Source of the DNA: an uncultured Calothrix sp.
Lineage (GTDB): Bacteria > Cyanobacteriota > Cyanobacteriia > Cyanobacteriales > Nostocaceae
Direction of reading: 5' to 3'
Assembly: GCA_937884685.1 (NCBI GenBank)
Contig: CAKZYM010001130.1
Location: forward strand, 1-54,407
DNA length: 54,407 bases
The position numbers and the translations under genes were made by a program. Below are positions 3,902-27,385 of the stretch, piece after piece (within the stretch, counting starts at the first letter, position 1; every line of letters starts with the position of its first letter). The notes beneath the pieces were generated by a model. That model was not told the origin of the DNA and did no database searches. It saw only the letters and a list, made by a program, of their open reading frames with translations.

Positions 3902-4030
3902 ATTTGCGACTCAAATTATTAAACTAGCAAGCTACATTTGTAATAATTTTTATCAAGAGAATTGAATCTAAGCAGAATATTTGGGAACTATAAAACCAAG
4001 AAATATATTTTTAATCTTTCTAAAACAATA

Positions 4031-7000
4031 ATGAAGAATATATCTATCCCAGAATATACCTTAGATAAAATTATTAATACTGGTGTAAGCACTAATATTT
4101 ACCGCAGTATCACAAAAGGGAATATTGCAGTTATTCTCAAAGTACTTAGAGACGATTATCCTACGTTGGAAGCGATTGCACGTCTCAAGCACGAGTATTC
4201 TGTTGCGAAAAAACTCGAACATGAAAACATCGTTAAAGCATTGCAGTTAGAAAACTCTGCCGAACATTATGCCATTATATTTGAAGATTTTGGTGGTATT
4301 TCTCTAAGACAGTATTTGGAAAGCAATAGACCATCATTGGAAACAATTCTCCAAGTAGCAATTGCAATTACTCAAGCACTTGTCTATATACATAGAAAGC
4401 AAATAGTTCATAAAGATATCAAGCCAGCAAATATTATTGTTAAAAATTTATCAGAGAATAATTCTATAAATTCAATTTATAAACCTGTGATTAAACTCAC
4501 AGACTTTAGTATTGCTTCATGTTTAGAAAAAGAAATAACCCAACAAATAAATTGTAATCAATTAGAAGGAACCCTTGCTTATATATCTCCCGAACAAACG
4601 GGTAGAATGAATCGTAGTTTGGACTTCCGTAGCGATTTTTATTCATTAGGGGTAATGTTATATGAAATGTTAACAGGTCAGTTACCATTTATTAGTAATG
4701 ACCCTTTAGAATTAATACATGCTCATATTGCCGAGCAACCTACTTCAATTAATAAGCTAAATCCAAATATTAATACTACGGTTTGTGCAATCGTTGAAAA
4801 ATTAATGGCAAAAAATGCCGAAGATAGGTATCAAAGTGCTGAAGGTTTACTAGCAGATTTGCAACAATGCTGGAAACAGCTACAAGCAACTGGAACCATT
4901 TTGAATTTCACTCCCGGTCAATTGGAAGTTATTTCTCAGTTGTTGATTCCTCAAAAGCTTTATGGAAGAGAATCACAAGTACAGTTATTACTAAATGCTT
5001 TTGAAAGAATGACTAAGGGTAATAGTGAGTTAATTTTAGTCTCTGGTTATTCTGGTATTGGTAAAACATCAGTAATTAATGAAGTAAATAAACCAATCGT
5101 AAAAGCTGGAGGATATTTTATTAGTGGTAAGTCAGACCAGTTTAAACGAGATATTCCCTACGCATCTTTGATACAAGCTTTTTCAAGTTTATGCAAACAA
5201 TTGCTCACAGAATCTTCATCAAAATTAAAAAGATGGCAAAATAAAATCCAAAAGGCTGTTGGTCATAATGGACAAGTGATAATTGACTTAATACCGGAAG
5301 TTGAATTAATCATTGGGAAGCAAGTAGAAGTACCACATCTAGAACCTATAGAAGCTCAAAATAGACTCAACCAAATATTTCAAAAATTTGTTAGTTTGTT
5401 TACGAAAAAAGGGCATCCCCTGGTCATATTTTTGGATGATTTACAATGGGCCGATACTTCAACTTTAAAACTGATGCAGCTATTAGCCATCGATTTAAGT
5501 ATTGAATATTTATTAATAATTGGAGCTTATCGAGATAACGAAGTTAATCCAACTCATCCCCTAATTAGTACAGTTGAAGAAATTGAGAAACATAAAACAA
5601 TTAATAACATTACTCTTGAACCTCTTTCAAATCACAATGTAACAGAATTAGTCGCAGAAACTCTCAATGATAACAAAGAAGACAGTAGTTCACTAGCAAA
5701 ATTAATTTTCAATAAAACTGGTGGTAATCCTTTCTTTGTTACTCAATTACTACAGAGTTTGTATCAGGAATCTTTACTCAAGTTTGATTTTAATCAACAA
5801 AAGTGGTTGTGGAGCATTCAAGATATACAGTCTGTTGGAATAACAGATAAAAGTGTAGTGGATTTAGTCGCATCAAGAATTGAAAAATTACCAGAAATCA
5901 CGCAACAGGTGCTAAAACTAGCTGCTTGTATTGGAGATAAATTTACCTTAGATGTACTATCAGTAGTCAACGAAGAATCAATTAATCAAACTGCAAACTA
6001 CTTAAATAAAGCACTTGAAGCCGGTTTAATTCTACCATTGAATCAAAACTATCGAATCCCTTTATTGTTCGATGACTCCGAGCAAATAAGTTCATTCGAT
6101 AATAATCAAATTGGTTATAAATTTTTGCACGACCGAGTTCAACAAGCAGCTTATTCATTAATTCCAGAAAATAAAAAACAAGCCACGCATTTAAGAATTG
6201 GACAGCTTTTAAAAGAATCAACCAGCCAAGATAAACTCGCAGATAATATTTTAGATATTGTTAATCAATTAAATTTTGGTATTGAGTTACTCAAAGAAGA
6301 GAGAGAAAAATTAGAGCTAGCAAATCTAAATTTGTTAGCTGGTCAAAAAGCTAAGAGAAATTCTGCATTTGAAGCTGCAATCAAATACTTAAATATTGGC
6401 TTAAAGCTATTAGTCGAAAATTCTTGGCAGAGTCATTACGATTTGACCCTTGGGTTATATGTAGAGACAGCAGAAGCTGAATATTTAACTGGTAATTTTG
6501 AAAAATCCCACGAGTTAACAAATATATCGTTAGAGAAGTGTAAAAATATTTTAGATAAGGTTAGAGTTTATGAAATAAAAATTCAATTTCATACAGCAAA
6601 AGGAGAAGTTACGAAAGCATTAGATATTGGGGTTACTGTATTGAAAGGTTTGGGATTAAATTTACCAAAGCAAGCAAAGAATATTCATATTTTATCTGCA
6701 TTTGCTCAAACTAAATTAGTTTTAGCTGGTAAAAACATAGAAGATTTGCTTTATTTGTCAGAAATGGAAGACCCTTATAAATTAGCAATAATGAAAATGA
6801 TAATGTTTATTACCCCTGTTGCTTCTCAATCTGGGTCATTGCTATTTCCGCTAATGGTATTAGCGATGGTAAGGTTATCTATTCAATATGGTAATAGCAT
6901 GTATTCTTCTTATGCATATAGTGGCTACGGTGCTATGCTCTGCGATAAGTTTGGAGATATTGATTCAGGATATCGCTTTGGTCAGTTAGGTATTAAATTA

Positions 7001-9448
7001 CTTTCTCATCTAAATGCTTATTCACTAAAAGCAAAAGTTTTTCTGATTTACAATACAATGATTAAGCATTTTAAAGGACACATCTCTCAAACAATTCCCA
7101 ATCTAATTGAGGGAGTACAGAGTGGAGTCGAAACAGGAGATATATTATTTTCTAGTTATAATGCTTGTTTTGTGGTTCAAAATAGTTTTTTTTGTAATAC
7201 CCATCTCGACATATTTATTAAAGAAATAGATAAATATATTGAATTAGTAAGTAATAATTTCAAAATTGAAACTGATGTTGTAGGACTGAAAGTTTTAAGA
7301 CAAACCGTGCTACAACTGCAAGGATTAACTTTAAATAGAATTTCCTTAACGAGCGATGACTTAAGTGAAGAAGATTTTCTTTATTTATATAAAGAACAAC
7401 CAATAATAATGAGAATTTTTTGTTTTTGTAAAGCCCAAAATAATTATCTTTTTGCAAACTATCAAGTTAGTATTAAATCTGTAAAAGAATCACAAAAATA
7501 TGAAGAGTCAGATCCAGGATTTTTTGTCTATATTCTGAATAATTTCTATTATTCTTTATCATTATTAGCCGATATTACAAATGCATCTCAACAAGAAAAA
7601 CAAAATTATCTACATCAAATCAAAATTAATCAACGAAAAATGAAAGTTTGGGCCAATTATGCTTCCTGCAACTTTCAACATAAATATGATTTAGTTGAAG
7701 CTGAAAGAGCTAGAGTCTTGGGCAAAAATAATTTAGCAATTGATTTATATGATAAAGCAGTCGCAGGAGCGAAAGGAAATAACTATACAGCAGAAGAAGC
7801 TCTTGCGAACGAACTTGCGGCAAAATTCTATATTGAGCAAGGTAAAGAAAAATTTGCCAAGATTTATATGACAGATGCTTACTATGGTTATTTCAAATGG
7901 GGTGCTTTTGCTAAAGTTAAAGATTTAGAAGATAATTATCCCGACTATATTATTCGTACTCAAACAGGTATATCTCTAGATAAAAAAGGTACAATAGCTT
8001 CAACTAGTTTTAGCCAAACTTTAGCTTTAGATACTTCAACTTTAATTAAATCATCTTTAGCATTAAGTAGCGAAGTGATTCTGGAAGATTTAATACACAA
8101 ACTGATGCATTTAGCTAAATTAAATGCAGGGGCAGAAAAAGTTTTATTTATTGCTAATAATCAAAATGAATTAGTGATTGAAGCTTTATTAAATGAAAAA
8201 AATGAGATATCTATATTACAATCTCTGACAAGCAATGCACAAAAGATATTACCTGTATCTATTATTAATTACGTTCACCGCACTCAACTTCCTGTTATTT
8301 TAGATGATGCAAATAGTGCCGATAATTTTAAAAATGACCTTTATATTCTCTCAAATAAACCAAAATCAATTCTCGTATCTCCTATTATTCATAATGCAAA
8401 GATGAGCGGAATTTTGTATTTAGAAAATAATCTTATTAATAGTGCATTTACAAAAGATAGACTAGAAATTTTGAAAGTATTATCAGCGCAAGCAGCTGTT
8501 TCTGTAGAAAATGCCCGTTTCTATTCTACCTTAGAAGCACGAGTGAATGAAAGGACGCAACAGCTAGAAGAAAAAAATAAGGAATTACAAGCTATTACCC
8601 AACAGTTACAAACTACTTTGCAAAAACTAAAACGTACTCAATCACAGTTGGTTCATAACGAAAAAATGTCCTCTTTAGGTCAATTAGTAGCAGGTATCGC
8701 TCATGAAATTAACAATCCAGTTAGCTTTATTTATGGTAATTTAACATATACTTCTACATATATAGAATCTTTATTAGAATTGATTGATATTTATCAAGAA
8801 AACTCTTGCTATGACAATATTCCTCAAGCTATCGAAAAGATTGAAGAAATAGACTTACCCTATATTAGAGAAGATGTACCAAATCTAATTAATTCAATGA
8901 AAATGGGTGCATCGCGCATACGGGATATTGTTAAATCGCTACGCATTTTCTCGCGTTTAGATGAGGCAAAAATTAAAAAGATTGATATACATGAAAATCT
9001 CGATAGTACATTAATGATTCTCGTACAAAAATTAGGAAGTATTCAAGTTATTAAAGATTATGCTCAATTGCCACAAGTAAGCTGTTATGCAGGCGAAATA
9101 AATCAAGTTTTTCTACATTTAATTACTAACGCAATTGATGCACTATCGACAGGAGTAGGTGAATTATTTGAATCAAAGCAAGCTCCTACAATTGTGATTA
9201 GCACAGAAATAGATACTAGCAATACAGTCATTGTTCGGATAGCTGATAATGGTGTAGGAATGAAAGATAATATTAAGCAAAAAATATTTGACCCTTTCTT
9301 TACCACTAAGCCAGTTGGTCAAGGTACTGGTATGGGACTATCTATAAGTCATCAAATTATTACAGAAAAACATCAAGGCAGTTTAGAATGTATATCTTCA
9401 CCGGGGAAAGGAACAACATTCATAATTGGCATACCCCTTTCAATATAG
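4031..9448 (+). CDS. HstK-type hybrid kinase: Ser/Thr kinase + AAA ATPase + helical repeats + GAF + histidine kinase
   Basis: HKDIKPAN, DFS, GTLAYISPEQTGRMN; Walker A GYSGIGKT, Walker B LVIFLDDLQWAD; H-box AGIAHEINNP; DNGVGM, FDPFFTTK, GTGMGL. ATG 4031 preferred over TTG 3962. Confidence 0.92.
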   Translation: MKNISIPEYTLDKIINTGVSTNIYRSITKGNIAVILKVLRDDYPTLEAIARLKHEYSVAKKLEHENIVKALQLENSAEHYAIIFEDFGGISLRQYLESNRPSLETILQVAIAITQALVYIHRKQIVHKDIKPANIIVKNLSENNSINSIYKPVIKLTDFSIASCLEKEITQQINCNQLEGTLAYISPEQTGRMNRSLDFRSDFYSLGVMLYEMLTGQLPFISNDPLELIHAHIAEQPTSINKLNPNINTTVCAIVEKLMAKNAEDRYQSAEGLLADLQQCWKQLQATGTILNFTPGQLEVISQLLIPQKLYGRESQVQLLLNAFERMTKGNSELILVSGYSGIGKTSVINEVNKPIVKAGGYFISGKSDQFKRDIPYASLIQAFSSLCKQLLTESSSKLKRWQNKIQKAVGHNGQVIIDLIPEVELIIGKQVEVPHLEPIEAQNRLNQIFQKFVSLFTKKGHPLVIFLDDLQWADTSTLKLMQLLAIDLSIEYLLIIGAYRDNEVNPTHPLISTVEEIEKHKTINNITLEPLSNHNVTELVAETLNDNKEDSSSLAKLIFNKTGGNPFFVTQLLQSLYQESLLKFDFNQQKWLWSIQDIQSVGITDKSVVDLVASRIEKLPEITQQVLKLAACIGDKFTLDVLSVVNEESINQTANYLNKALEAGLILPLNQNYRIPLLFDDSEQISSFDNNQIGYKFLHDRVQQAAYSLIPENKKQATHLRIGQLLKESTSQDKLADNILDIVNQLNFGIELLKEEREKLELANLNLLAGQKAKRNSAFEAAIKYLNIGLKLLVENSWQSHYDLTLGLYVETAEAEYLTGNFEKSHELTNISLEKCKNILDKVRVYEIKIQFHTAKGEVTKALDIGVTVLKGLGLNLPKQAKNIHILSAFAQTKLVLAGKNIEDLLYLSEMEDPYKLAIMKMIMFITPVASQSGSLLFPLMVLAMVRLSIQYGNSMYSSYAYSGYGAMLCDKFGDIDSGYRFGQLGIKLLSHLNAYSLKAKVFLIYNTMIKHFKGHISQTIPNLIEGVQSGVETGDILFSSYNACFVVQNSFFCNTHLDIFIKEIDKYIELVSNNFKIETDVVGLKVLRQTVLQLQGLTLNRISLTSDDLSEEDFLYLYKEQPIIMRIFCFCKAQNNYLFANYQVSIKSVKESQKYEESDPGFFVYILNNFYYSLSLLADITNASQQEKQNYLHQIKINQRKMKVWANYASCNFQHKYDLVEAERARVLGKNNLAIDLYDKAVAGAKGNNYTAEEALANELAAKFYIEQGKEKFAKIYMTDAYYGYFKWGAFAKVKDLEDNYPDYIIRTQTGISLDKKGTIASTSFSQTLALDTSTLIKSSLALSSEVILEDLIHKLMHLAKLNAGAEKVLFIANNQNELVIEALLNEKNEISILQSLTSNAQKILPVSIINYVHRTQLPVILDDANSADNFKNDLYILSNKPKSILVSPIIHNAKMSGILYLENNLINSAFTKDRLEILKVLSAQAAVSVENARFYSTLEARVNERTQQLEEKNKELQAITQQLQTTLQKLKRTQSQLVHNEKMSSLGQLVAGIAHEINNPVSFIYGNLTYTSTYIESLLELIDIYQENSCYDNIPQAIEKIEEIDLPYIREDVPNLINSMKMGASRIRDIVKSLRIFSRLDEAKIKKIDIHENLDSTLMILVQKLGSIQVIKDYAQLPQVSCYAGEINQVFLHLITNAIDALSTGVGELFESKQAPTIVISTEIDTSNTVIVRIADNGVGMKDNIKQKIFDPFFTTKPVGQGTGMGLSISHQIITEKHQGSLECISSPGKGTTFIIGIPLSI

Positions 9449-9614
9449 AGTTATTATTAATTACTCGGCAACTTTGGCTAACAAATAAGTTTTGAAAACT
9501 AAATTTAACTGGTTGATTTTCAGCAATAAAAGCTACTGATTACTGAATTTGATGACTAGAAGCACAAAATTTAAATACTTCTAGTCTTATTTGATAATTG
9601 ATAAGAATTAAGGC

Positions 9615-11045
9615 TTATTTTGTTTGTTGTGGGACTGTAGAGGAATCTAAAGAATGCATCAGGACTTTTGCTAGGATATTTGGTGCGAAAAGTGATTGGG
9701 GAGCTTTTACCATAAGAACTACCTCTAAAAATTTTTTGTAGATTTTGGCATCTTTGACTGATAAAAGTAATATTTGATCCATGTATCCATGCATTAGTTT
9801 GGTTAATATATTCATTTGACGACCTTTGGTTGTTTCCCAGCGGCAATCTTCGCTAGTTGTCATTAACCAAGGATTTTTCAAACGTTTTGCCAGCTTGCTT
9901 TGGAAGCGCTTCGTTAAACCTCTTAGACTATCGGGAGAACGCTGCAATTGTTCTCGCAGGCAGAGGTCTAGAGTTAAAGCACCTAGAGCAGATACAGTCA
10001 TACCCTGACCGTAATGCGGATTGAAAGCACATACAGCATCACCAATAGCAATCAAGCCTTCTGGCAATTTGGAAAGCTTTTCGTAGTGATTCCATGAATT
10101 TTCCATCCGTCGATAGCCGTAGACTGGAGAAATTGGTCTAGCATCTTTAATTGCTTCATAAATTAACGGGGTACGTAGACTACGAAGAAATTCCATAAAA
10201 CCATCTTGATCCGTAGGTGGATAATCTTTAGCAGTACCGATAGCAGTAGCAGCCCAACGGTTACCTTCAACTAGACACAAAAATCCGCCTCGTTTATCTT
10301 GAGGTGGTTTAGTCGCAACTACGATACCTTTCCAATCAGCTTGATAATTTTCTGGTACTTCATACCAGCAAGTACTATAGCCTCCAAAAGAGTTGATTAC
10401 TGTTTGCCTAGGTGCTTGATAGCCGATTTTCTCTAACCATTTAGGTAATAGGGAATTACGTCCACTAGCATCGACTACTAAATCAGCAGCTAATTGTTCT
10501 TCAGATTCCTTGTGGGAGGATATTTGAACCCCGGTAATTTTGGAATTACTCTCGTCACTTACCAATCCTCTAACTTGAGTTGCCGTGATAAATTTCAGAT
10601 TGGTATAGCTGCTCAAACGCTTCCTTACCAAGCATTCCAAAAAGTTTCGACTACAACTGCGAGTTATTAAGTCTGAAGGACTAAGGGATGCCCATCCCCA
10701 TACATTTAGGAAATAATATTCTGAAGACCAGTCTACACTAGGAGCGCCACCTGTGGTTAATTCTGCTTCTATTCCAGGAAACAATTGCTCCAAAATCTGC
10801 TGTCCTTGGAGAAGCAATGTATGAACGTGATTTGCTTGAGGAACACCTCGTCGTGTTTCTGGCTGCTGTGGTAGTCTATCGCGTTCGATTATAGTTTCGC
10901 AATCGAAGTGTTCTAGCAAAACCCTCGATGCCAATAATCCTGACATACCAGCACCAATCACTACCGCATGACTATTTTTGCCAATTCTGTTAATAGTTTT
11001 ACAATTTACTTTGGTAAACATAAGTCTTTTTTTGGTGACAGACAT
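9615..11045 (-). CDS. FAD-dependent monooxygenase (UbiH-like / Lsd18-MonCI epoxidase-like family)
   Basis: GAGMSG Rossmann motif, RRGVPQANHVH, VVDASGR, GDAVCAFNPHYGQGMT. Start uncertain (11066 TTG, 11045 or 11021 ATG). Confidence 0.85.
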   Translation of the reverse strand: MSVTKKRLMFTKVNCKTINRIGKNSHAVVIGAGMSGLLASRVLLEHFDCETIIERDRLPQQPETRRGVPQANHVHTLLLQGQQILEQLFPGIEAELTTGGAPSVDWSSEYYFLNVWGWASLSPSDLITRSCSRNFLECLVRKRLSSYTNLKFITATQVRGLVSDESNSKITGVQISSHKESEEQLAADLVVDASGRNSLLPKWLEKIGYQAPRQTVINSFGGYSTCWYEVPENYQADWKGIVVATKPPQDKRGGFLCLVEGNRWAATAIGTAKDYPPTDQDGFMEFLRSLRTPLIYEAIKDARPISPVYGYRRMENSWNHYEKLSKLPEGLIAIGDAVCAFNPHYGQGMTVSALGALTLDLCLREQLQRSPDSLRGLTKRFQSKLAKRLKNPWLMTTSEDCRWETTKGRQMNILTKLMHGYMDQILLLSVKDAKIYKKFLEVVLMVKAPQSLFAPNILAKVLMHSLDSSTVPQQTK

Positions 11046-11161
11046 GAAATTATCGATACGGAGCAACCCAAAAATTTGAGTTCTAAAATCATAAACGTAA
11101 ATAGACTATATTCAAGTGCTATCGCAAGCAAATACTAGAATTTAATTGAGAATTAAATTAT

Positions 11162-11241
11162 TTATAGTTATTCCAATTAATTTTCGCAGTGCGAGCAAGA
11201 TGCTCGCACTACCATCTGTTTTTTCGTAAGAATAACTATAA
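11162..11241. repeat. Small MITE/REP-like element
   Basis: 12-bp terminal inverted repeats TTATAGTTATTC/GAATAACTATAA enclosing a perfect 10-bp hairpin AGTGCGAGCA-aga-TGCTCGCACT (11188-11210). Confidence 0.65.
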
Positions 11242-11451
11242 TTCTCAATTACACCTGATCCAAATTTTTGATATTGCTCTTGTATCGATATTACGATTAT
11301 TCGTTATTTTCTTTCAAAAGCTGCTCAAGGGTTAAAGTGACTAAATTCTGGTTATTCTGTTGACACAACTGATAACAGAATGAGCATTTTTATAGCTATT
11401 TACAGCACTTTTCAGTTAGATTTGGGTACACTTAGTGATGCTAGTGTTTTC

Positions 11452-12201
11452 TTATATTTGTGCTACTGATTTATCAATACTACTCATTGTTGTAAATGGC
11501 CGATCATAAGCGTGCTTGTGAGCAAAGGTAAACATTTCATTCATTGAGTCTGCGAAATCTGCAAAAACTTTTTCTATCAGAGTGAACGCTTTTTCTTTTT
11601 GAGCTTCGGTTAGCTGTATATTTTCGATAAAATTCTCTACTGAATCCATATCTGCTTGAATGTGACCTGTCTCTTTTACGATGTGAGAAGGACCAAAATA
11701 AGGGTAGTGCTGCTTAGTTATCTCTGTAAGTTCTTTTGCTACTTGTGAAGCCTCAAATAAACCAACATTTCCAATTGCTTCTACTGATTCAGCCACAGCA
11801 AGCTTGATTAAAACATCCTCCTCCAAAGTACATATACCAAATAAGTTATAGGCCATTTGACGCACTTTAATAGTTTCCTCACCCCAAAGGAATTTTAAGG
11901 CATCAGTATAATTAATAGGACTATCGTATCCCATTAGCTGCATATCTTTGAGAAACCATGACCAATGCTGTGCATCTTCGCGGGAGTGCTGGTTCATCAT
12001 CTCTTGAATTTTACTATCCGCTGGCTCTTTATAAAGTACGATTCTATTAAAATCTTTAAACATCATTGCAAAAGGAGCAAAAGCTGGTGTCCAAGCTAGC
12101 CTTTGTCTTGGGTCTATACTTTTATCTTGCATAAATTGAATTAATTGAGTTTGAGCAATGTCTTGCTTCTTTTTTTCGATTAAAGCTAAAATTTCCTTCA
12201 T
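11452..12201 (-). CDS. Heme-oxygenase-like diiron oxidase (HDO), AetD nitrile-synthase-like
   Basis: All-helical ~250 aa; H72xxE75D76xxH79W, E138xxE141, H173xxxE177xxH180 mirror the AetD motifs as recalled (HTQEDAKHW, SHVEVETGH); GGAG RBS upstream; 19 bp from the upstream gene. Confidence 0.82.
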   Translation of the reverse strand: MKEILALIEKKKQDIAQTQLIQFMQDKSIDPRQRLAWTPAFAPFAMMFKDFNRIVLYKEPADSKIQEMMNQHSREDAQHWSWFLKDMQLMGYDSPINYTDALKFLWGEETIKVRQMAYNLFGICTLEEDVLIKLAVAESVEAIGNVGLFEASQVAKELTEITKQHYPYFGPSHIVKETGHIQADMDSVENFIENIQLTEAQKEKAFTLIEKVFADFADSMNEMFTFAHKHAYDRPFTTMSSIDKSVAQI

Positions 12202-12220
12202 TTTTAATACTCCAAATAAC

Positions 12221-13303
12221 TTAAAAAAACGGATGAGATTCCAAAGCCAGATAAACCGTTACTCGTCGTTTGTTCTGCTTATCTCGACGAAACGAAATAC
12301 ATGAATGTATTCCAGAGCGCGCATTCAGAGAGCGGTTTGTAACTGCTTTAATCGAACTATCGTAAATAGAGGCTGGAAGATTTTTATTTACGAGATAGTT
12401 ATTAATGCGCTCTCGCATTACACCGTCATTGGTAGCATAAGGTGTAAGTGGAATTTGAATTGTGGCTGTATTTGGGGCACTTGGATTACCTTCAATAAAA
12501 GCAAAACAAGAAATCACAGGTCTTTTAGATAATACTATCGTATCTGCAATAGCCTGACAAAATTCGGTAACATCTCCCGGTACATAATTACGCGCAACGC
12601 TATACATTTTCTCCAGTTCTTCTGCTGTAATATCACGGTGTTGCCAATAGATTTTTACTCTGGCTTCTGGTTTTGCAGACAGGTCTAGAGAAAAGTATTT
12701 AAGTTCATTTTTGCTTGGGTCTTGCTCTTTTAAAACAGCTTCTACAGCTAACCAAGACTCTTTTAATCCAAGACGCTTAAAGGTTTCCTTGATTACATCC
12801 TGTGTTTCATTTTTCCCCTTTGCTTGTGGATTTAAATAGATTTTGAACTCTGATTTTTTGTTGGGTAAAAAGCAAGCTCCATGCCACATTGCAAAATGGG
12901 CAGCTTCGTCTTCAGGAAAAAACAGGTCGCTAACCTGATTTAGTCGAGTTAAACTTGCACCATAATTATCCATCAACCAATAATTAAATTGCATTCCCGC
13001 TCGCCAATTAGATAGCAAACTAAAACCATCTCTTTGGGATTCACATAAAATCCTTAGCTCTGGAGTATCTTTATCGATTGCAACTGAAAACTCAAATGGA
13101 GTATGGTCATCAGCTATCCCAGACAACCATAGTGGTTGCTTGTCAATGACGTTATTTCCCCATGATGAAGTCATCTGCTTGAAGACTTCCATTATCTCCA
13201 AGGTTTTATGCTTCATCCCGCAGATATTGACAAGAGAATATAATTTTTCCGAACCATACTCAAGATATGTAGGTGTTTTTAAATCAGTCTGTTGTGCATA
13301 CAT
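12221..13303 (-). CDS. Tryptophan dimethylallyltransferase (DMATS-type ABBA aromatic prenyltransferase)
   Basis: WLSGIADDHTPFEFSVA (indole-binding Glu motif), ELRILCE, MWHG, FKIYLNP, YFSLDL, RVKIY, RRVTVY: basic/Tyr residues typical of bacterial IptA/SCO7467/PriB-like DMATS. Confidence 0.88.
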   Translation of the reverse strand: MYAQQTDLKTPTYLEYGSEKLYSLVNICGMKHKTLEIMEVFKQMTSSWGNNVIDKQPLWLSGIADDHTPFEFSVAIDKDTPELRILCESQRDGFSLLSNWRAGMQFNYWLMDNYGASLTRLNQVSDLFFPEDEAAHFAMWHGACFLPNKKSEFKIYLNPQAKGKNETQDVIKETFKRLGLKESWLAVEAVLKEQDPSKNELKYFSLDLSAKPEARVKIYWQHRDITAEELEKMYSVARNYVPGDVTEFCQAIADTIVLSKRPVISCFAFIEGNPSAPNTATIQIPLTPYATNDGVMRERINNYLVNKNLPASIYDSSIKAVTNRSLNARSGIHSCISFRRDKQNKRRVTVYLALESHPFF

Positions 13304-14175: not shown

Positions 14176-17100
14176 TTAAACAATTGCAAAATTATCAACA
14201 CTCAAAACATTCGCATCAATTCCTTGTAAAATTCCTAAACTCATTCCATTAACAGCAATTAAACTATTATCTTCCTGCTGAGTAATGCTTATATCTTCAA
14301 ACCCAATCCCCAAGCCAGCAATTCCAATTACGTCTTCACCAATCGTAAAATCAGTAATAGTATTTGTTCCATCGGGAGTTTCAGCAACAGCAATCCAAAA
14401 TTGGTCTGCACCTTCACCACCAGTGACAATATTATTACCACCAGATGTAGTAAAGAAACCGTCGTTTCCTGCTTCACCAAAAACGCGAGAATCTTTTCCT
14501 AAAATTAATACATCATCACCTTGACCACCGTAAATGCGATTATCACCCTTACCACTAGTAGAAGCATCAATTAAATCATCTCCTTTACCAGCGAAAATAA
14601 TTTTATTACTATTTTCTACTTCAATAACATCATTCTCAACAGTTCCAAATACAGTTTCCTGATTTGTCGAAACACCTGTTTCGAGCAATTCAAATGTAAC
14701 TTCTGGATAAGTCGAATTATCACCTGCTAATAAATGACTATCCTCGTTATTCAGATATTTGTCGAAGAAAGCAACTGTATAATCATTAATAATCGTAGTT
14801 GCTCGCTCTGGTTCAATAGGAGCAATAAAATTTTCTAAATCACCTAAATCAACTCCAGCATTTTTTAACTGGTTTAAGAAAATCGGGATGTCGCTAAAAC
14901 TTTGATGATTTGTATCGTCAATTGTGAGTTGATAACCATCATTTTGCATATTTTCAATGAATGATTCTCGTATTTCGTTTAATTCTTTTGATAATGGGTC
15001 TGAAGGAGTACCAACTCCAAATAGGTCACTGTTCATAAACATAAAGGGTTGGCTCAAACTTTCATCAACTCTATTGATTAACAGCGAACCATCTAAATTA
15101 ATTCCAGCTTTGAAACGTTTATCTTGTAATAAGGTTTCAGCAGCAGTAGCACCACCTAATGAATATCCCAGAAAACCGACTCTATCCAAGTCTAATTTTC
15201 GACTCAAAATTCCTTCACCTGCGTTAATTTCTTCTAATTCATCTAATACAAATTGTGCATCTTCTGCTCGAACTCCCACACTTTGTCTAGCAGCTTTTAG
15301 AAAATCCGCTTCATTTTGTACGTTAAATACAGGAGATTGACCTATGATTCTTCCATCGTGAAAAACAGAGAGAGTAGAATCATAGGTATGTTTCATGCTA
15401 ACATCTACTTAACCTTGAGATGCTATTTCCTCTGCACTAATCGTACTGAACTCTGATGGAGTTCCGAAACCGTGAGAAAAGAATAGTACGGGATAATCGG
15501 ATTCAGCATCAGCAACGGGAGCATTGATAATACTGTTGGTAGATATCTGTTCATTTAATTCAATTAATTCTTCCTCAGATAAACCAAAACCCGGTGCTAG
15601 CTCTCGACTTAATTCTTCACTCAAATAGGGAGCGGTTTTTCCTTCAGAGATTTCAGTGGGATACCAAACTTTAACAGTCAACTCTCGGTTGTCGTCGGGG
15701 TCTTCAGTATATATTTCTTCTCTTTCCCAATCTTTGAAATAATAATCAGCAGTTCCTACGGAATATTCACCAGTTGGTTCGGGGAAGGATAATCCAGAAG
15801 AATCATCGTTGACAAAATTATCTTCACTTAGACTATCAGCAGTTACATCTTGCAAAATTGCGATATCAACACCATCGATGGTAATTACAGCATCTTTATC
15901 TTGTTGGGTAATATTAATATCTTCTAAATTTACACCCAAATTAGTAATATCAATCAAATCATCATCAACTTTAAAATCAAAAATTTTATCTGTCCCTTGA
16001 TCCAGTTTGAGGACAAATACATCCTTACCCACACCACCATTGAGACTATCGTTACCCAAACCACCCCTTAGAGTATCATCACCAGCATCACCCCAAAGTC
16101 TGTCATTCCCAGCTTCACCAAAAATCAGGTCATTACCAGCTTCACCAAAAATCAGGTCATTTCCCATTCCACCATAAATAGTGTCATCACCACCAACGCT
16201 TCCACCACCAGAACTATTATTTAAATCCCCTCGTAAAACATCATCACCACCTTGACCGAAAATCAAATCATTACCCAAACCCCCAGCTATAGTATCGTTA
16301 CCTTCTTCACCAGCAAGGGTATTATCTGCTTCGTCACCTACTTTGACATCGCTTTCTTCCGGAACGATTTCACCAAACTTGAGAAATTTTTGAAATTTTT
16401 TCCAATCACCAGCATTATCAGGGTCACTAATAAGTTGAAGTAATTTAACTTGGTCTATAGAATCATCATCAAGTTCTGCTAGTTTACTTTCATCTTCAAG
16501 TAAACCAATCAAATCAGCTTTATTATTAATTACATCAACAACATCAATTAAACCATTAACAAAATTACTGTTAAAAGAATCAATCCATTCTTCAGTGCTA
16601 ATATTATTATTAGGTTCGCCGAATAAAGTATTATTAACAGCCGAAAATATAGAATCGATTGCAGATGGTAAGGAATCAGAAGATTGGTTTGTCAGAATTA
16701 CAACCGTAGTATCGTTCTCGGGGAAATAGCGCATTTTACTAAAGTAGCCAAAAGTCCCACCATCATGTCCCCACATTTCTCCCCAGGGGGTTTGCTCTTC
16801 ATATATACCCAATCCATATTCGTCTCCAACTTCCACCTCACTTTCATCAATGTTTGACCAAGAAAGCATATGATTCAAACTTTCAGGTGTTAATAATTCT
16901 CCACCGAAAAGTGCATTGCTAAAACGGGATACATCCTTAGTATTTGAGACAATTCCACCATCGGCTAAGGTAGAAGCAAGAGATGAAAAAGAATTTTTTG
17001 TTTGTTCAATAACACCATCCGAGCCAAAACTCCCATCTTCTCCGATTAAATCAGCATATCCGTTAACGAATTTATCTTCTGGGATTTCATCTCCAACAAA

Positions 17101-17718
17101 ATAAGTATTTTCTAATTCCAATGGCTCCAAAATTAAACGATTAACTTCATCTTGATAAGAATTACCTGTAGCAGCTTCGATGACCATTCCCAGCAGAAGA
17201 TAATTAGTATTGGAATAATTAAATGATTCCCCAGGAGCAAAATCAGGATTTTCCCCAGCCACGTAATTATTAATTATTGCTTCCCGACTCCAATCAATAT
17301 CAGCACCATTTTGAAAAGCTAGTTCATCTGCTAACCATTTTTGATTTGTATAGTTAGCAATACCGCTAGTATTATTCAACAATTGCTCCACGCTTATATC
17401 CTGAACATCAGGAATATTACGAATAATAGAGTCTGGTAACCATTGGTCTAAAGTATCTTGTAAACTCAGCTTTTCTTCTTCTACTAATTTAAGAAGAGTT
17501 GCTGATGTAAATGTTTTACTAATACTACCTATTTTGAATAATTCATCTGGATTTAATGATTTTTCTGTCTCCAAATTAGAAACTCCACTAGCACCAAACC
17601 AAGTACCCTCGGAATTGATCACAGCGACTGTCGCACCAGCGATTCCAGCACTGTCCACAGCAGTATCTATGGTTGTTTGTAATTGTTGAGCGAGTTCCGA
17701 AGAGATATTGTAATTCAT
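14176..17718 (-). pseudogene. Secreted fusion hydrolase (beta-lactamase/D-Ala-D-Ala-peptidase-family serine hydrolase + RTX + PAF-acetylhydrolase-like alpha/beta hydrolase + RTX), split by one in-frame TAA at 15409-15411
   Basis: SISK, YSN, HDG motifs; GGxGND nonapeptides; FSHGFG...ASQG*VDVSMKHTYD continues in frame into the 406-aa ORF with GYSLGG, NLDG, NHQSFSD. The stop may be a sequence error. Confidence 0.8.
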
Positions 17719-22462: not shown

Positions 22463-23135
22463 AAAATCTACAGATGGGATGTCTGTTAATACCACAATTT
22501 AATAGTAAGGTAATTAGTGGTATCGGCATATCTACCCACTCAATTCTACTTACCTACAAATTATTTTCACCAAATTCCAACACCAATATTCTTAAAAACT
22601 TCACTATTTACTTATTTTGTATCAGAATAAACCCTGATTAATTTAAATACAATTTGGGCTATTTACCGATAGTGTAACTATACTGCTATTTATTTCAGTT
22701 ACTCCCTATCACTATCAGAATCATTATGTCAAGGATAATTTTACCATTTTAATAATAATTGATGAATTACCTATGGGAGCAGGTTTAACAGCCTGCTTTT
22801 GTTTTTATTCAATAGAAACCATATATCCATATTTAATAGGGGTTAAACTATTAAATATCTTGTCCCAAACCATAAATTGTGTAAAAACTGTAAAAAAAAA
22901 GACGTATACCTTTACTATACTCTTGGCAAACACATGAGTTTTTAACTACTATATTTTTCAGTAATTACTCGAATGGCATATGTTCCTATATCTAGGTATT
23001 AATAACATTCAGCAGTTATTACTAAAATGTTGTCCTTTATTCTTTATTAACCAGATAACAACCTGTTAATAACTTTATAGATATACTTTGATTGAAACAA
23101 TTTATAACAGCAGCACCCCGAATGATACTGATATT

Positions 23136-23894
23136 ATGAGCGCACTTTTACAAATTGGCGACCGCGCTATTAGTGTTGATGAGATTCTTCCGTTGCTTAA
23201 GCAATACGGAATGCTGCCTCAGTTGCTAAAAGAAATTGTCATTGATAATGCAACTGCTTCCATAACACTTTCCGAAGAAGAAGTTACTGAAGCATATAAA
23301 CAGTTTTATCAGCAGCAGCAGTTAGGAGATGAAGAACAATTACAAGCTTGGCTCAAATCCCGTGGCTTGGGACGCGAACAGCTAGATTATCTCGTAACTC
23401 GTACTCTTCGTTTAGAAAAATTTAAACAAGATACCTGGGGAGCAAAAGTAGAACCATATTTTCTTCAGCGTAAAGAAAAGTTAGATAAAGTAATCTATTC
23501 GCTGATTCGGGTTAATGATATTGCTGTTGCTCAAGAATTATACTTTCGGGTTCAAGAAGACGAGCAGCCTTTTGCAGAACTTGCCCGTGAGTATTCCAAG
23601 GGTCCCGAAGCACAGACGGGAGGGTTGATTGGTCCGGTAGAGTTAGGGGTTCCCCATCCAGTATTAGCAAAAATGTTGCTCAAATCTCAGCCGGGACAAG
23701 CATTACCACCAACTCGCTTGGGAGATTGGATTTTAATTGTGCGATTGGAACAATTTATTCCCGCACAATTAGATGCAGCTACCCATAAGCGACTGTTAAA
23801 CGAGCAATTTGAAACCTGGCTGCAAGGAGAAATATCTTCTGCTATCAAAAATAGTCATTTATCGGTAGGCGAAGATGATTCTAAAACGGATTAA
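23136..23894 (+). CDS. PpiC/parvulin-type peptidyl-prolyl isomerase associated with type I secretion
   Basis: YSLIRV, FAELAREYS, GGLIGP motifs; precedes hlyB-hlyD; ATG 23136 preferred over TTG 23088. Confidence 0.85.
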   Translation: MSALLQIGDRAISVDEILPLLKQYGMLPQLLKEIVIDNATASITLSEEEVTEAYKQFYQQQQLGDEEQLQAWLKSRGLGREQLDYLVTRTLRLEKFKQDTWGAKVEPYFLQRKEKLDKVIYSLIRVNDIAVAQELYFRVQEDEQPFAELAREYSKGPEAQTGGLIGPVELGVPHPVLAKMLLKSQPGQALPPTRLGDWILIVRLEQFIPAQLDAATHKRLLNEQFETWLQGEISSAIKNSHLSVGEDDSKTD

Positions 23895-24192
23895 TCTTAT
23901 TTTAGATTTTGTACAAAGTTGGGAGAAGTGTTCTTTTCCCAAGCTTTCTAAGATAGGTTTTGGATTTTGGATGAAAATTTCAACTTTTTCAAGCTAACTC
24001 GGTTTAGCTGAAAATCATAAAATATATGATTTTTTAAAGCGCATTATTGTCGTCAGTCAGTCCTATAAGAAAAGAAACGCATCACCATTTCATTTAATCC
24101 AAAATCCAAATTTTTAAATTTCAGGTGTATCTCCGGGATTAATCCAAAATTCATTAACGAAATGTGTCTTTATGGCATAATGCAAAATTCCC

Positions 24193-27100
24193 ATGACTTA
24201 TACAACAACTAACATCCAAGAATTTTTAGCGGAGATTGCTCCCTTTAACCAGCTACAACCGTCTTCAATGACAAGGCTTTTACAAAAAGCACAGTTGTTC
24301 CGCTACCGTATGGGGCAGGTGATTCTGGCTAAGGAAAAAATGCCAGCCCAGGTATCTATTCTTTTTTCCGGTCAAGTCCGTTTATTAGGTTATCAAGCTC
24401 AAACCCAAATACCCGTAACTTTGGCAAGACTGCAACCCGGAGAAGTCATGGGCTGGCTGGAAACAGTGCGGGGAGTGCCTGGATCTACCGCTATAGCTTC
24501 GACGGAAGTTATTTGTATTAACTTTGATGCTGCTGAATTTTTGGCTTTACTAGGTCAGGAAGACAGCTTTGGCACATATTTTTATAATCGCGCGGGAATA
24601 GTTGAAGTATTTGAATTGCTCTGCAAGCAACTAGGAAGTCTTGCAAATAACCAATTAATTTTACAAGCATCCGGATGTGCTAACTATAAAGAGTTAGCGC
24701 TGAAAGTTTTCGATGAGACCCAAGTCGTTAACTTAGTTAATCGCGATGCTACAAGCCAGTTAAATCCCGATTACGTATGGTTGATCAGTGGAGGAACAGT
24801 TTCTCCTGAACTAATTGGCAATCGTTTTGGACAAGATGAATCTGTGCCACGAGGAAGTCGGATTCGTTTATTAGGGGTTAAAGCAAATGTCTTTTCACCA
24901 CCAGAAGACATGGTGCAAGATACCACAGAAGAAGCCCAACAAGCAGACATTACAGAAGTTATTCCTGCTGGGGAGTCTTCAGGAACATACGACGATATTC
25001 CCTATGCACCAAACGAACCACCTGAAGCCGAAAGAAATTACAAGCAGGACTCTGCTGCTGCGATTAAATATCCCCACGTGCGCGGTAGCGGTGGAGTAAA
25101 TGCTATTCTTGCTTGTTTCCAGATGTTGAGCAAACATCTAAATATGCCCTTCCGCAAGGAAGTTATTCGTAAAGTTTTAGTAAACCAGCAAAAGCGCACT
25201 GGTTCGCTGTCGTTGCAGCAGTGCGGTGCTGTAGCTCAGTTAGTAGGTTTAAGACCCCAACTAGTCGGCGTACCCTCTGGTGCATTAGGAAGAATTGAAC
25301 CACCTGCAATAGTCCAATGGCAAGATAGTTTTGCGGTACTCTACGAAATTAGCCCCAAAAATATCGTAGTTGGTGTCCCGGAATCGGGAATCTTGAACCA
25401 AAAAACTTCAGATGTCGCACAGGTACTGCTTCAGTCCCAACCTCAAACCGAAGAACAACAAGATGCCATTCCTGTATTGCTGCTGCAAGCCACTGAAGAA
25501 ACCCCCCAGCAAAAATTTGGGTTAAGTTGGTTTTTACCTTCTTTAAATAAATATAAAGGCGTACTTGTCGAAGTATTTATTGCTTCCTTCTTCGTACAAC
25601 TATTTGGTTTGGCAAATCCCCTTGTAACCCAGGTAATTATTGACAAGGTAATTAACCAAAACAGTCCGGACACGCTACAAGTTCTCGGTGTATTTTTGCT
25701 AGTTATTGCAGTATTTGAAGCAGTACTTACTAGTATTCGGACTTATTTATTTGTCGATACTACCAACCGCATTGACCTAGCTCTGGGTTCGGAAATTATC
25801 GACCATTTACTGCGGCTACCATTACGTTACTTTGAAAAGCGACCCGTAGGTGAACTTTCCACTCGGGTAAACGAATTAGAAAAAATTCGCAGCTTTTTAA
25901 CCGGAACCGCCTTAACAGTGGTTTTAGATGCGGTTTTCTCCGTAATTTACATCGTAGTAATGTTTATCTACAGTTGGATACTAGCCTTAGTAGCCCTGGG
26001 AACATTACCGCTATTTGCCATCCTCACCTTTGTCGTTTCTCCCATAGTGCGCCGACAGCTACGGCATAAAGCCGAACGTAACGCTCACGCACAATCCCAC
26101 TTAGTAGAAATTCTATCGGGTATCCAGACAGTTAAAGCCCAAAATATTGAATTACGCTCTCGCTGGCAGTGGCAGGAGCGTTACGCTAGTTATGTTAGTG
26201 CTGGGTTCAAAACAGTTAAAACTTCTACTGCTGCTGGTTCTACAAGTGGCTTTCTTAACAAACTTTCCGGCTTGCTGGTACTGTGGGTGGGAGCTTATCT
26301 AGTATTAGAAGGAACGCTAACTTTAGGACAGTTAATCGCCTTTCGGATTATCGCCGGTTACGTTACTTCTCCCTTGTTACGTCTTACCCAACTATGGCAA
26401 AACTTCCAAGAAACTGCTTTATCCTTGGAACGTTTAAGCGATATTATTGACTCACCTCAAGAAGCCAGCGAAGAAGACAAAGGTAATATTCCCATGCCGA
26501 TGATTGAAGGAGCAGTCAAATACGATGACGTTTCCTTCCGCTTCAAACCCACCGGTCCCATGCAGTTAAACAACATTAGCTTGGAAATTCCACCAGGAGT
26601 ATTTGATGATATCGTAGGACAAAGTGGTTCTGGTAAGAGTACGCTGATGAAACTGCTACCGCGTCTTTATCCTTTGGAATCGGGACGCATTCTCATCGAC
26701 GGTTACGATATTAATAAAGTAGAACTTTACTCCCTGCGACAGCAAGTAGGGATTGTGCCGCAAGATACCCTACTTTTTGAAGGCTCAGTACAGGAAAACA
26801 TCGCCTTAAATTATCCTGATGCCACCCCAGAGGAGATTATAGAAGCAGCTAAAATAGCAGTAGCCCATGAATTTATCATGGACTTGCCTAATGGTTACAA
26901 TAGTAGAGTAGGCGAACGAGGTAGCGCTTTATCCGGCGGACAGCGACAAAGAGTCGCAATTGCCCGTACAATTTTGCAAAATCCGCGTTTGTTAATTCTT
27001 GATGAAGCTACCAGCGCCCTCGACTATGAGTCCGAACGTCAGGTATGCTTGAATTTAGCGGAAGCTTTTAAAGGAAGAACTGTTTTCTTTATTACACATA

Positions 27101-27240
27101 GACTAAGTACAATCCGTAATGCTGATATTATTTTGATGTTAGACAAAGGTTATGTTGTAGAACAAGGAACTCACCAAGAACTAATGTCACTTAAAGGGCG
27201 CTACTACTGCCTGTATCAGCAACAAGAAGCACAAATTTAA
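24193..27240 (+). CDS. hlyB: Type I secretion ABC transporter (cNMP-binding + C39-like + TMD + ATPase), HlyB family
   Basis: GQSGSGKST, LSGGQRQR, LILDEATSALD, ITHRL; transmembrane region; N-terminal cNMP-like domain. Confidence 0.92.
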   Translation: MTYTTTNIQEFLAEIAPFNQLQPSSMTRLLQKAQLFRYRMGQVILAKEKMPAQVSILFSGQVRLLGYQAQTQIPVTLARLQPGEVMGWLETVRGVPGSTAIASTEVICINFDAAEFLALLGQEDSFGTYFYNRAGIVEVFELLCKQLGSLANNQLILQASGCANYKELALKVFDETQVVNLVNRDATSQLNPDYVWLISGGTVSPELIGNRFGQDESVPRGSRIRLLGVKANVFSPPEDMVQDTTEEAQQADITEVIPAGESSGTYDDIPYAPNEPPEAERNYKQDSAAAIKYPHVRGSGGVNAILACFQMLSKHLNMPFRKEVIRKVLVNQQKRTGSLSLQQCGAVAQLVGLRPQLVGVPSGALGRIEPPAIVQWQDSFAVLYEISPKNIVVGVPESGILNQKTSDVAQVLLQSQPQTEEQQDAIPVLLLQATEETPQQKFGLSWFLPSLNKYKGVLVEVFIASFFVQLFGLANPLVTQVIIDKVINQNSPDTLQVLGVFLLVIAVFEAVLTSIRTYLFVDTTNRIDLALGSEIIDHLLRLPLRYFEKRPVGELSTRVNELEKIRSFLTGTALTVVLDAVFSVIYIVVMFIYSWILALVALGTLPLFAILTFVVSPIVRRQLRHKAERNAHAQSHLVEILSGIQTVKAQNIELRSRWQWQERYASYVSAGFKTVKTSTAAGSTSGFLNKLSGLLVLWVGAYLVLEGTLTLGQLIAFRIIAGYVTSPLLRLTQLWQNFQETALSLERLSDIIDSPQEASEEDKGNIPMPMIEGAVKYDDVSFRFKPTGPMQLNNISLEIPPGVFDDIVGQSGSGKSTLMKLLPRLYPLESGRILIDGYDINKVELYSLRQQVGIVPQDTLLFEGSVQENIALNYPDATPEEIIEAAKIAVAHEFIMDLPNGYNSRVGERGSALSGGQRQRVAIARTILQNPRLLILDEATSALDYESERQVCLNLAEAFKGRTVFFITHRLSTIRNADIILMLDKGYVVEQGTHQELMSLKGRYYCLYQQQEAQI

Positions 27241-27308
27241 TAAGAACCGGAATTGGGTATTAGGCATAGGTTAAAGGTCAAAGGTCTGCATGTTAAAGGT
27301 TTTATTTG

Positions 27309-27385
27309 TAATTCCTAACTCCTAATTCCTAACCCCTAATTCCTAACTCCTAATTCCTAATTCCTAATTCCTAACTCTTAACTCC
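27309..27385 (+). repeat. STRR-type heptamer tandem repeat, consensus TAA(T/C)TCC, 11 units
   Basis: Directly visible between hlyB and hlyD. Confidence 0.9.

What the first reader, a model, noticed from the sequence alone, without database searches (positions are those of the whole stretch)
11452..12201. AetD homologue with an apparently intact diiron site outside a halogenase cluster
Seen: D76, H79, E141, H173, E177 and H180 fall in the same motifs and nearly the same numbering as the AetD ligands as I recall them (D76/H79/E140/H172/E176/H179). Pipelines would probably label this gene hypothetical. Inference: catalytically competent, with a pocket adapted to a bulkier prenylated indole. It could be useful as a nitrile-forming biocatalyst.
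Basis: partly seen in the sequence, partly recalled or inferred. Interest (0 to 1): 0.75.

Follow-up and report, generated by a model that had tools for sequence, protein, structure and literature searches.

The report
Diiron enzyme paired with tryptophan prenyltransferase
This cyanobacterial gene encodes a relative of two known tryptophan-cutting iron enzymes, keeps all six iron-binding residues and sits directly behind a gene for a likely tryptophan prenyltransferase, so it likely trims prenylated tryptophan into a small indole, more likely a skatole than the nitrile first proposed.

Summary
Observation confirmed. 11452-12201(-) encodes a 249-aa AetD-family diiron oxidase (HDO) with D76/H79/E141/H173/E177/H180 matching AetD's ligands; its model superposes on AetD (Z 30.6, rmsd 1.4 Å) far above other HDOs (Z ≤15.8).

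That alone is ordinary: 224 of 389 family genomes carry a homologue, and 106 of 117 aligned members keep all six ligands. The ligands do not imply a nitrile. SktA, a published homologue with the same six, makes skatole plus cyanide. This protein is 42% identical to SktA and 33% to AetD, and is an orthologue of neither.

The interesting part is the context. It lies 19 bp behind a tryptophan prenyltransferase (DMATS) gene and ahead of a MonCI-type epoxidase-like gene. In 8 of 16 family genomes with this DMATS, an AetD-family gene follows. Congeners keep the DMATS and flanks (87-91% identical) but swap in another AetD-family gene or a tryptophanase. DMATS-AetD-family fusions exist in myxobacteria.

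Best reading: prenyl-tryptophan side-chain cleavage (~0.75), most likely to a prenyl-skatole (~0.42 overall); nitrile/aldehyde ~0.2; new chemistry ~0.22. Pocket adaptation to a prenyl group is only weakly supported. No activity was measured.

The parts
11452..12201 (-). AetD/SktA-family heme-oxygenase-like diiron oxidase (P0001, 249 aa). Ligand codons: D76 11974-11976, H79 11965-11967, E141 11779-11781, H173 11683-11685, E177 11671-11673, H180 11662-11664. Substrate-contact positions F44, F48 and Y168 kept.
12221..13303 (-). DMATS-type indole prenyltransferase (360 aa), likely acting on tryptophan. E71, R84, K154, Y156, R215, K217 and Y219 present. Ile264 and Cys335 stand where 6-DMATS (6ZRX) has V259 and the C6 base H329, so the prenylation site cannot be predicted.
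   Evidence: Pfam PF11991 52.7 bits, cut-off 25; TIGR03429 101.5 bits, below its 163.85 cut-off; 6ZRX E 1.5e-43; residues; H329 role from a passage of PMC9355150; roles of the other residues recalled
12202..12220 (-). 19-bp spacer between the DMATS stop and the HDO start, with a GGAG ribosome-binding-like site (12210-12213) 8 nt before the ATG
   Evidence: sequence; co-transcription inferred, not shown
9615..11066 (-). MonCI/Lsd18-family flavin-dependent monooxygenase (epoxidase-like); probable third gene of the cassette; true start may be a downstream ATG
   Evidence: MonCI E 1.6e-71, Lsd18 5e-62; adjacency to the HDO kept in a ~89%-identical contig of another study (run X4 record 27); a homologue lies in a tryptophanase-DMATS-IPP isomerase cluster (L202)
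9436..12226 (.). Exchangeable slot between the DMATS stop and the sensor kinase: non-homologous in congeners that keep both flanks
   Evidence: blastn against L194, L195, L196; run X4 record 26 joins 9427 to 12214 with 3215 other letters
3962..9448 (+). Convergent Ser/Thr kinase-AAA-GAF-histidine kinase hybrid gene (1828 aa); a gene of this family lies in 43 of 95 AetD-family loci

Best explanation
The gene encodes an AetD/SktA-family diiron oxidase with all six iron ligands, 19 bp behind a likely tryptophan prenyltransferase, and it likely cuts the side chain off prenyl-tryptophan, most likely as SktA does, which would give a dimethylallyl-skatole plus cyanide and bicarbonate. Step 1 (inferred from family): the DMATS puts a dimethylallyl group on L-Trp at an unknown ring position. 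Step 2 (inferred from AetD structures): the product would bind Fe1 through its amine and carboxylate, held by H79, H173, Y168, F44 and F48, and trigger O2 activation. Step 3 (inferred from SktA, the weakest step): C-alpha/C-beta scission with hydrogen transfer to C-beta. Step 4 (inferred): the MonCI-like flavoenzyme would oxidise the product, plausibly at the prenyl double bond. The small neutral indole may act as a signal for the adjacent sensor kinase (speculative). Shown: fold, ligands, gene order, slot exchange, repeated DMATS pairing and fusion.
For: Coupling to the DMATS: of 16 family genomes with a match to this DMATS (of 389), 8 have an AetD-family gene directly behind it, 3 a fused PF14518 iron-enzyme domain plus a kynureninase-like gene, 2 an adjacent tryptophanase, 1 an aminotransferase, and 2 a broken DMATS. 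Same-genus loci keep the DMATS (83-93% aa) but carry a different AetD-family gene (L194, L196; 37-41% to P0001) or a tryptophanase (L195) in the slot. Single-chain DMATS + AetD-like proteins exist (P0151, P0160; the latter named from Archangium). The DMATS label needs 5 changes on the tree, and one clade of cyanobacterial DMATS-linked members is rejected (AU p 2.6e-7). P0001 groups with the two DMATS-linked members L080 and L091 (100/99). Precedent: actinomycete DMATS clusters pair with tryptophanase or an FMO to trim the side chain (PMC3617294 passages). For the SktA outcome: 42% vs 33% identity; same network component as SktA (221 of 343 sequences) with the AetD clade (7) separate at score 72; Phe at position 214 as in SktA (review passage); L080 and L091 are followed by an FMO 49-51% identical to SktC, echoing the skt layout; the AetD clade is a long separate branch (0.82).
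Against: No activity was measured. The P0001 clade plus the SktA clade as one group is rejected (AU p 0.0002), while the P0001 clade plus AetD is not (p 0.28; 41-row subset, groups named after seeing the tree). P0001 leaves SktA's component at score 90. It lacks SktA's T139 and T142, the two residues a 2026 review suggests may matter for the AetD/SktA difference, having V and I, hydrophobic as in AetD. Only one enzyme of that large component has been assayed in the papers found. Most of its closest relatives stand alone, often beside PAS and GntR genes, without a DMATS (2 of 22 close loci have one). The DMATS lacks the His base of 6-DMATS. MonCI-like genes occur in 14 of 27 genus genomes, with no DMATS in the ±1.5 kb flanks read, and 385 bp with a hairpin-like repeat separate this one from the HDO.
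Confidence: 0.42

Rival explanations
1. Same substrate (prenyl-Trp), but a third chemistry that is neither AetD's nor SktA's, for example oxidative decarboxylation to a vinyl-indole, aldoxime or indole-acetonitrile, or release of an alcohol or aldehyde at C-beta.
For: P0001 is an orthologue of neither enzyme and only 30-42% identical to them. AetD and SktA at 39% identity already differ in product. The second-sphere set V140/I143/G147/D215/F216 matches neither. dN/dS is higher within the DMATS-linked trio (0.20-0.24) than to standalone relatives (0.09-0.14).
Against: No residue points to a specific new reaction. Substrate-anchoring F44, F48, Y168 and all ligands are unchanged.
Confidence: 0.22
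2. One reading: an AetD-type nitrile synthase making dimethylallyl-indole-3-carbonitrile (aldehyde as shunt product) by nitrogen migration.
For: Hydrophobic residues at 139 and 142 as in AetD; all 7 AetD-clade members lack Thr142, as do 12 of 16 DMATS-linked members. The close clade plus AetD is not rejected (AU p 0.28). AetD accepts Trp and 5-Br-Trp as well (PMC10654658). Prenyl-indole aldehydes and nitriles are known ends of actinomycete DMATS clusters, by other enzymes.
Against: 33% identity. The AetD clade is separate at 100/100 and in the network. The DMATS-linked trio plus AetD is rejected (p 0.004). M139, S214 and F221, nearly fixed in the AetD clade, are V, F and M here. PMC11869266 found AetD unclustered and took nitrile pathways to be rare.
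Confidence: 0.2
3. The HDO works on unmodified Trp like its standalone relatives are presumed to; the DMATS acts afterwards on the released indole, or the adjacency is not functional.
For: Most close relatives have no DMATS. P0001 keeps the standalone clade's D215/F216. Small residues at 146 and 217 are not DMATS-specific. SktA and AetD both turn over plain Trp.
Against: Repeated independent pairing and fusion with DMATS. The DMATS's best solved matches include Trp prenyltransferases. M47, a non-Thr142 and G147 mark the DMATS-linked sub-branch.
Confidence: 0.12
4. The gene is decaying or inactive.
For: Higher dN/dS in this branch; broken DMATS copies in L196 and L197 show that such cassettes decay.
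Against: Intact frame, all ligands, dN/dS well below 1; 98% and 84-86% identical full-length relatives; cassette covered by independent contigs.
Confidence: 0.04

Closest known systems
SktA, skatole synthase (PMC11869266)
   Same: HDO fold family, same six ligands, 42% identity, same network component at the paper's cut-off, Phe at 214; layout of ring-modifying enzyme + HDO + flavin oxygenase.
   Different: Partner is a prenyltransferase, not the halogenase SktB; third gene is MonCI-like, not SktC-like; V140/I143/G147/S219 instead of T139/T142/M146/F217; not in the SktA clade.
AetD, nitrile synthase of aetokthonotoxin biosynthesis (PDB 8TWW, 8JI3)
   Same: Fold (Z 30.6, rmsd 1.4), six ligands, F44, F48, Y167/168, hydrophobic 139 and 142.
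   Different: 30-33% identity; outside the AetD clade; I146 to G, S214 to F, L217 to S, F221 to M, I41 to F; no halogenase, P450 or tryptophanase adjacent in this window.
Actinomycete indole-prenyltransferase clusters, Type A (IptA + tryptophanase) and Type B (SCO7467 + FMO SCO7468) (PMC3617294)
   Same: A DMATS followed by an enzyme that trims or oxidises the Trp side chain, beside sensor-type genes; Type A-like pairs occupy the same slot in congeners (L195, L215).
   Different: Here the trimming enzyme is a diiron HDO; cyanobacterial; the adjacent sensor is a Ser/Thr kinase-AAA-GAF-His kinase hybrid rather than the conservon the paper describes.
MonCI / Lsd18 flavin-dependent epoxidases (third gene)
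   Same: E 1.6e-71 over about 435 residues.
   Different: No polyether synthase nearby; substrate unknown; the family is common in unrelated contexts.

Membership tests
HDO superfamily | Heme-oxygenase-like seven-helix fold | tested here: met
HDO superfamily | 3 His / 3 carboxylate ligand set on the core helices | tested here: met
   D76, H79, E141, H173, E177, H180 by alignment
HDO superfamily | Fe- and O2-dependent turnover through a peroxo-diiron species | not testable with these tools
   needs enzyme assay
AetD/SktA subfamily (Trp-acting HDOs) | Closer to AetD than to UndA, BesC, CADD or TenA | tested here: met
   Z 30.6 vs ≤15.8; TM 0.85-0.88 vs ≤0.63
AetD/SktA subfamily (Trp-acting HDOs) | Phe48 in place of the extra Glu ligand, Phe44 stacking, Tyr167 carboxylate contact | tested here: met
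   F44, F48, Y168
AetD nitrile synthases (orthologues) | Inside the AetD clade or its network cluster | tested here: not met
   AetD clade 100/100 excludes it; trio + AetD AU p 0.004; separate component at score 72. A sister relation of the wider clade is not rejected (p 0.28).
AetD nitrile synthases (orthologues) | Clade residues M139, S214, F221 | tested here: not met
   V, F, M in P0001
AetD nitrile synthases (orthologues) | aet context (halogenases, tryptophanase, P450) | tested here: not met
   neighbours are a DMATS, a MonCI-like gene and a kinase; AetF-type genes not searched genome-wide
AetD nitrile synthases (orthologues) | Forms indole-3-carbonitrile with N migration | not testable with these tools
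   needs labelled-substrate assay
SktA skatole synthases | Same network cluster as SktA at the published cut-off | tested here: met
   (my 343 sequences, single linkage); splits at score 90
SktA skatole synthases | Inside the SktA clade; T139 and T142 | tested here: not met
   AU p 3e-5 and 0.0002; V140, I143
SktA skatole synthases | SktB halogenase and SktC FMO adjacent | tested here: not met
   SktC-like FMO present only in relatives L080 and L091
SktA skatole synthases | Forms skatole, cyanide and bicarbonate | not testable with these tools
   needs enzyme assay
Type A/B indole-prenyltransferase clusters | DMATS-family gene | tested here: met
   Pfam over cut-off, PDB E 1.5e-43; TIGR03429 under its cut-off
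Type A/B indole-prenyltransferase clusters | Tryptophanase (A) or FMO (B) as partner | tested here: not met
   partner is the HDO; no tryptophanase hit in this 84%-complete genome
Type A/B indole-prenyltransferase clusters | Conservon four-gene cassette | not tested
   not searched; a hybrid sensor kinase is adjacent

The most novel reading that the evidence does not exclude
A third type of bacterial prenyl-tryptophan pathway, in which AetD/SktA-family diiron enzymes were recruited several times (and fused in myxobacteria) as swappable side-chain cutters behind a DMATS, with this lineage carrying out a C-C cleavage or rearrangement not yet seen in HDOs and producing an undescribed prenyl-indole signal read by the neighbouring hybrid kinase.
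Probability: 0.2. Interest if true: 0.75.

Novelty: new variant of a known kind. Interest (0 to 1): 0.5.

Why it matters
Only two members of this widespread family were found characterised, both on brominated tryptophan, and they make different products from the same ligand set; a 2026 review leaves the cause open and points to positions 139, 142 and 214. P0001 mixes these (AetD-like hydrophobic 139/142, SktA-like F214) and comes with a genomic pointer to its substrate, so one assay tests that idea. The DMATS-HDO pairing was not found in five searches of the open library (most subscription papers are not held). It predicts undescribed prenyl-indoles from cyanobacteria and myxobacteria. If the product is a nitrile, the biocatalyst idea stands. 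An intact AetD-like gene without a halogenase is, by itself, commonplace.

Tried and rejected
1. Pocket enlargement as a DMATS signature: small residue at 146 in 10/16 vs 39/74, at 217 in 9/16 vs 41/74; Gly146 in 5/16 vs 5/74; non-Thr142 in 12/16 vs 6/74. There are only 2 starred independent pairs, so no test reached significance. No model coordinates were available to measure the cavity.
2. The FAD gene as a halogenase: under the PF04820 cut-off, MonCI-like; rejected.
3. The FAD gene as DMATS-specific: homologues in 14 of 27 genus genomes, no DMATS in the short flanks read; its membership stays probable only.
4. Predicting the prenylation site from 6-DMATS/5-DMATS residues: neither pattern fits. 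PMC7253389 passages gave nothing useful.
5. The search for related loci on genome contigs with the single protein found 1 locus, with the same layout and identities as L080 and L214, counted once.
6. Promoter/terminator scan: 21 promoter-like sites vs 17.0±3.4 in shuffles, uninformative.
7. Expression: no RNA holder listed; no evidence either way.
8. Earlier scan notes: nothing.
9. Left out of the tree: fragments under 225 aa (L097, L098), L157 (run of N), near-duplicates (117 to 96 rows) and distant metagenome members L232, L247, L248, L256, L258, L263. Bootstrap had not fully settled; LG+G4 without mixture.
10. No complex prediction was run; binding is not claimed.

Full report
1. Observation. 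The minus strand of 11452-12201 is an open 249-aa frame, P0001. Its only significant PDB sequence matches are AetD chains (E 8e-42). D76, H79, E141, H173, E177 and H180 align with the AetD ligands D76, H79, E140, H172, E176 and H179 named in PMC11611611 (passages) and PMC10654658 (parts 1-3 of 5 read), where Ala substitution of each abolished activity. An AlphaFold2 model from a 100-sequence alignment (pLDDT 93.8) matches AetD at TM 0.85-0.88 and Z 30.6, rmsd 1.4 over 224 residues; the next families score Z ≤15.8. Pfam and NCBIfam give nothing.

2. How ordinary is it? 224 of 389 genomes of the window's family match P0001 at E ≤1e-25, and 71 of 401 sampled across the order at E ≤1e-10. The window's genome holds three more copies. 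In an alignment of 117 members, 106 keep all six ligands and 115 if Asp76 may be Glu. Of 95 loci I fetched (hand-picked, not random), 12 had an SktB-like halogenase. An intact homologue without a halogenase is therefore common.

3. Ligands do not fix the product. PMC11869266 (main text parts 1-2 of 4 and supplement parts 1-2 of 3 read) shows SktA, 39% identical to AetD with the same six ligands, converts 5-Br-Trp and Trp to skatoles, cyanide and bicarbonate; AetD stood alone in their network and SktA came from the largest cluster. A protein in locus L140 reads like the SktA printed there (compared by eye) and AetD was retrieved as P0279. P0001 is 42% identical to SktA over 230 residues and 33% to AetD over 215. 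Rebuilding the network on 343 sequences, P0001 and SktA share the 221-member component at score 72 while AetD and six relatives are separate; P0001 and SktA part at 90. On a 96-row tree the AetD clade (100/100), the SktA clade (100/98) and the trio P0001/L080/L091 (100/99) are distinct. AU tests on 41 of the rows reject trio+AetD (p 0.004), trio+SktA (3e-5) and close clade+SktA (0.0002) but not close clade+AetD (0.28) (groups chosen after seeing a tree). P0001 is an orthologue of neither, and phylogeny does not favour SktA.

4. Pocket. PMC13108848 (passages) singles out AetD M139/A142/S214 versus SktA T139/T142/F214. P0001 has V, I and F there, Gly for the ring-clamping I146, Ser for L217, Met for F221 and Phe for I41; F44, F48 and Y167 are kept. 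Phe at 214 argues against a C7 substituent (inference from the review). Within the close clade, M47 with a non-Thr142 marks P0001, L080, L091 and five database proteins that share the pattern (P0002, P0003, P0009, P0019, P0029; neighbourhoods not fetched). Family-wide, non-Thr142 is 12/16 in DMATS-linked versus 6/74 other rows, but on 2 well-supported independent pairs (p 0.5); small residues at 146 and 217 show no association. Adaptation to a prenyl group is possible, not shown.

5. Context. Upstream, 19 bp away with a GGAG site, is a DMATS-type prenyltransferase (Pfam over cut-off, TIGR03429 under cut-off; best PDB match 6ZRX, E 1.5e-43). It has Ile and Cys where 6-DMATS has V259 and the C6 base H329, so the site of prenylation is open. 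Downstream, 385 bp away, is a MonCI/Lsd18-like flavoenzyme (E 1.6e-71), then a convergent hybrid sensor kinase. One 3232-bp contig of run X1 spans 9382-12613 with 11 differences (possibly the source sample), and a contig from a different study bridges the FAD gene and the HDO end at about 89% identity, so the order is not an assembly artefact.

6. The pairing is recurrent. This DMATS matches 16 of 389 family genomes. Directly behind it is an AetD-family gene in 8 (window, L080, L091, L194, L196, L201, L203, L205), a fused PF14518 domain plus kynureninase-like gene in 3, an adjacent tryptophanase in 2, an aminotransferase in 1, and 2 copies are broken. Conversely these 8 are a small part of the 350 AetD-family matches, and only 2 of 22 close-clade loci have a DMATS; most have a divergent PAS/GntR pair. 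Same-genus L194 is 87-91% identical to the window in kinase, DMATS and upstream flank but non-homologous over 9436-12226, where it has another AetD-family gene (37%), a P450 and a cytokinin-dehydrogenase-like oxidase; L196 is similar and L195 has a tryptophanase. A contig of run X4 shows the same exchange. L080 and L091 follow their HDO with an FMO 49-51% identical to SktC and an SDR. Outside the family, L157 pairs the genes; of 68 metagenome DMATS loci, many short and some redundant, 13 carry an AetD-family gene or domain, 10 a tryptophanase-like gene and 14 a PF14518-type fusion (read from the table). P0151 and P0160 are DMATS-AetD-like fusions. The DMATS label needs 5 changes on the tree. 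Actinomycete DMATS clusters pair with tryptophanase or an FMO to give prenyl-indole carbaldehyde or acetonitrile (PMC3617294 passages). Exchange with tryptophanase in one slot is the best argument that the HDO's job is to remove the side chain of prenyl-Trp.

7. Selection. dN/dS is 0.20 and 0.24 against L080 and L091, 0.09 and 0.14 against two standalone relatives, and 0.11-0.18 for the DMATS: constrained, with faster protein change in the DMATS-linked branch.

8. Mechanism and odds. Shown: fold, ligands, gene order, slot exchange, recurrence. Inferred: DMATS makes dimethylallyl-Trp; the HDO binds it at Fe1 and activates O2; the side chain is cut (about 0.75 for this substrate together). For the product I put SktA-type prenyl-skatole at 0.42 overall, new chemistry 0.22, nitrile/aldehyde 0.20, plain Trp or no coupling 0.12, inactive 0.04. 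The SktA lead rests on identity, network grouping, F214 and the SktC-like neighbours of the sister genes, and is opposed by the AU result and the missing Thr139/Thr142. The epoxidase step is a family inference; homologues are common in other contexts, although one sits in a tryptophanase-DMATS-isopentenyl isomerase cluster (L202).

9. Novelty. Both enzyme families are known; their combination was not found in searches of the open library (search 53 found no further SktA-family enzyme), which lacks most subscription papers. Verdict: new variant of a known kind, interest 0.5.

Noticed in passing
window 3962-9448 and 95 AetD-family loci (L053, L078-L157, L163-L176): A Ser/Thr kinase-AAA-GAF-His kinase hybrid gene lies in 43 of 95 loci of ~9.8 kb, against 2.2% of random 9.6-kb windows of the window's genome (loci hand-picked, kin not independent). 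It may sense the indole product.
   Followed up: partly
L198-L200, L158-L162, L207-L213 and 14 metagenome loci: DMATS fused to a different iron-enzyme domain (PF14518), often followed by a kynureninase-like PLP gene; a separate prenyl-Trp pathway, perhaps via ring cleavage.
   Followed up: partly
L194:6055-6813, L196:7274-8026: A long-branch AetD-family lineage with Phe at the otherwise conserved Gly143 position, between a DMATS and a P450, with a cytokinin-dehydrogenase-like oxidase in L194.
   Followed up: partly
L053, L078-L094: P0001's closest relatives mostly stand alone beside a divergent small PAS-fold gene and a GntR regulator.
   Followed up: no
P0142, P0277, P0278, P0280-P0283: Seven further AetD-clade proteins exist in public assemblies, whereas the 2025 network showed AetD alone; their neighbourhoods were not fetched.
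   Followed up: no
G000:C154:196-1859 and G000:C942:2457-3197: Three more family copies in the window's genome; the C154 pair is tandem and one copy has an internal TAA stop that ends it at 156 aa, before the last three ligands; a methyltransferase-looking gene is adjacent.
   Followed up: partly
L101-L132 and others; P0147: A ~530-aa FAD oxidoreductase (Pyr_redox_3) is a frequent downstream partner of the family (24 ORFs) and is fused to the HDO in P0147.
   Followed up: no
window ~11189-11209: A short inverted repeat in the HDO-FAD spacer; many contigs of laid runs match only there, so it is likely a dispersed repeat that could uncouple transcription.
   Followed up: no
window 14176-17718: Serine-hydrolase/PAF-AH-like gene with calcium-binding repeats is two ORFs here but one 1182-aa ORF in L194: frameshift or assembly error.
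   Followed up: no
L196:6036-7101, L197:5854-8162: Close DMATS copies broken by a frameshift (L196) or interrupted by a transposase-looking ORF (L197).
   Followed up: no
window 23088-28945: Peptidyl-prolyl isomerase-like, ABC transporter and HlyD-like genes that look like an ordinary type I secretion set, near repeat-bearing secreted proteins (by eye).
   Followed up: no
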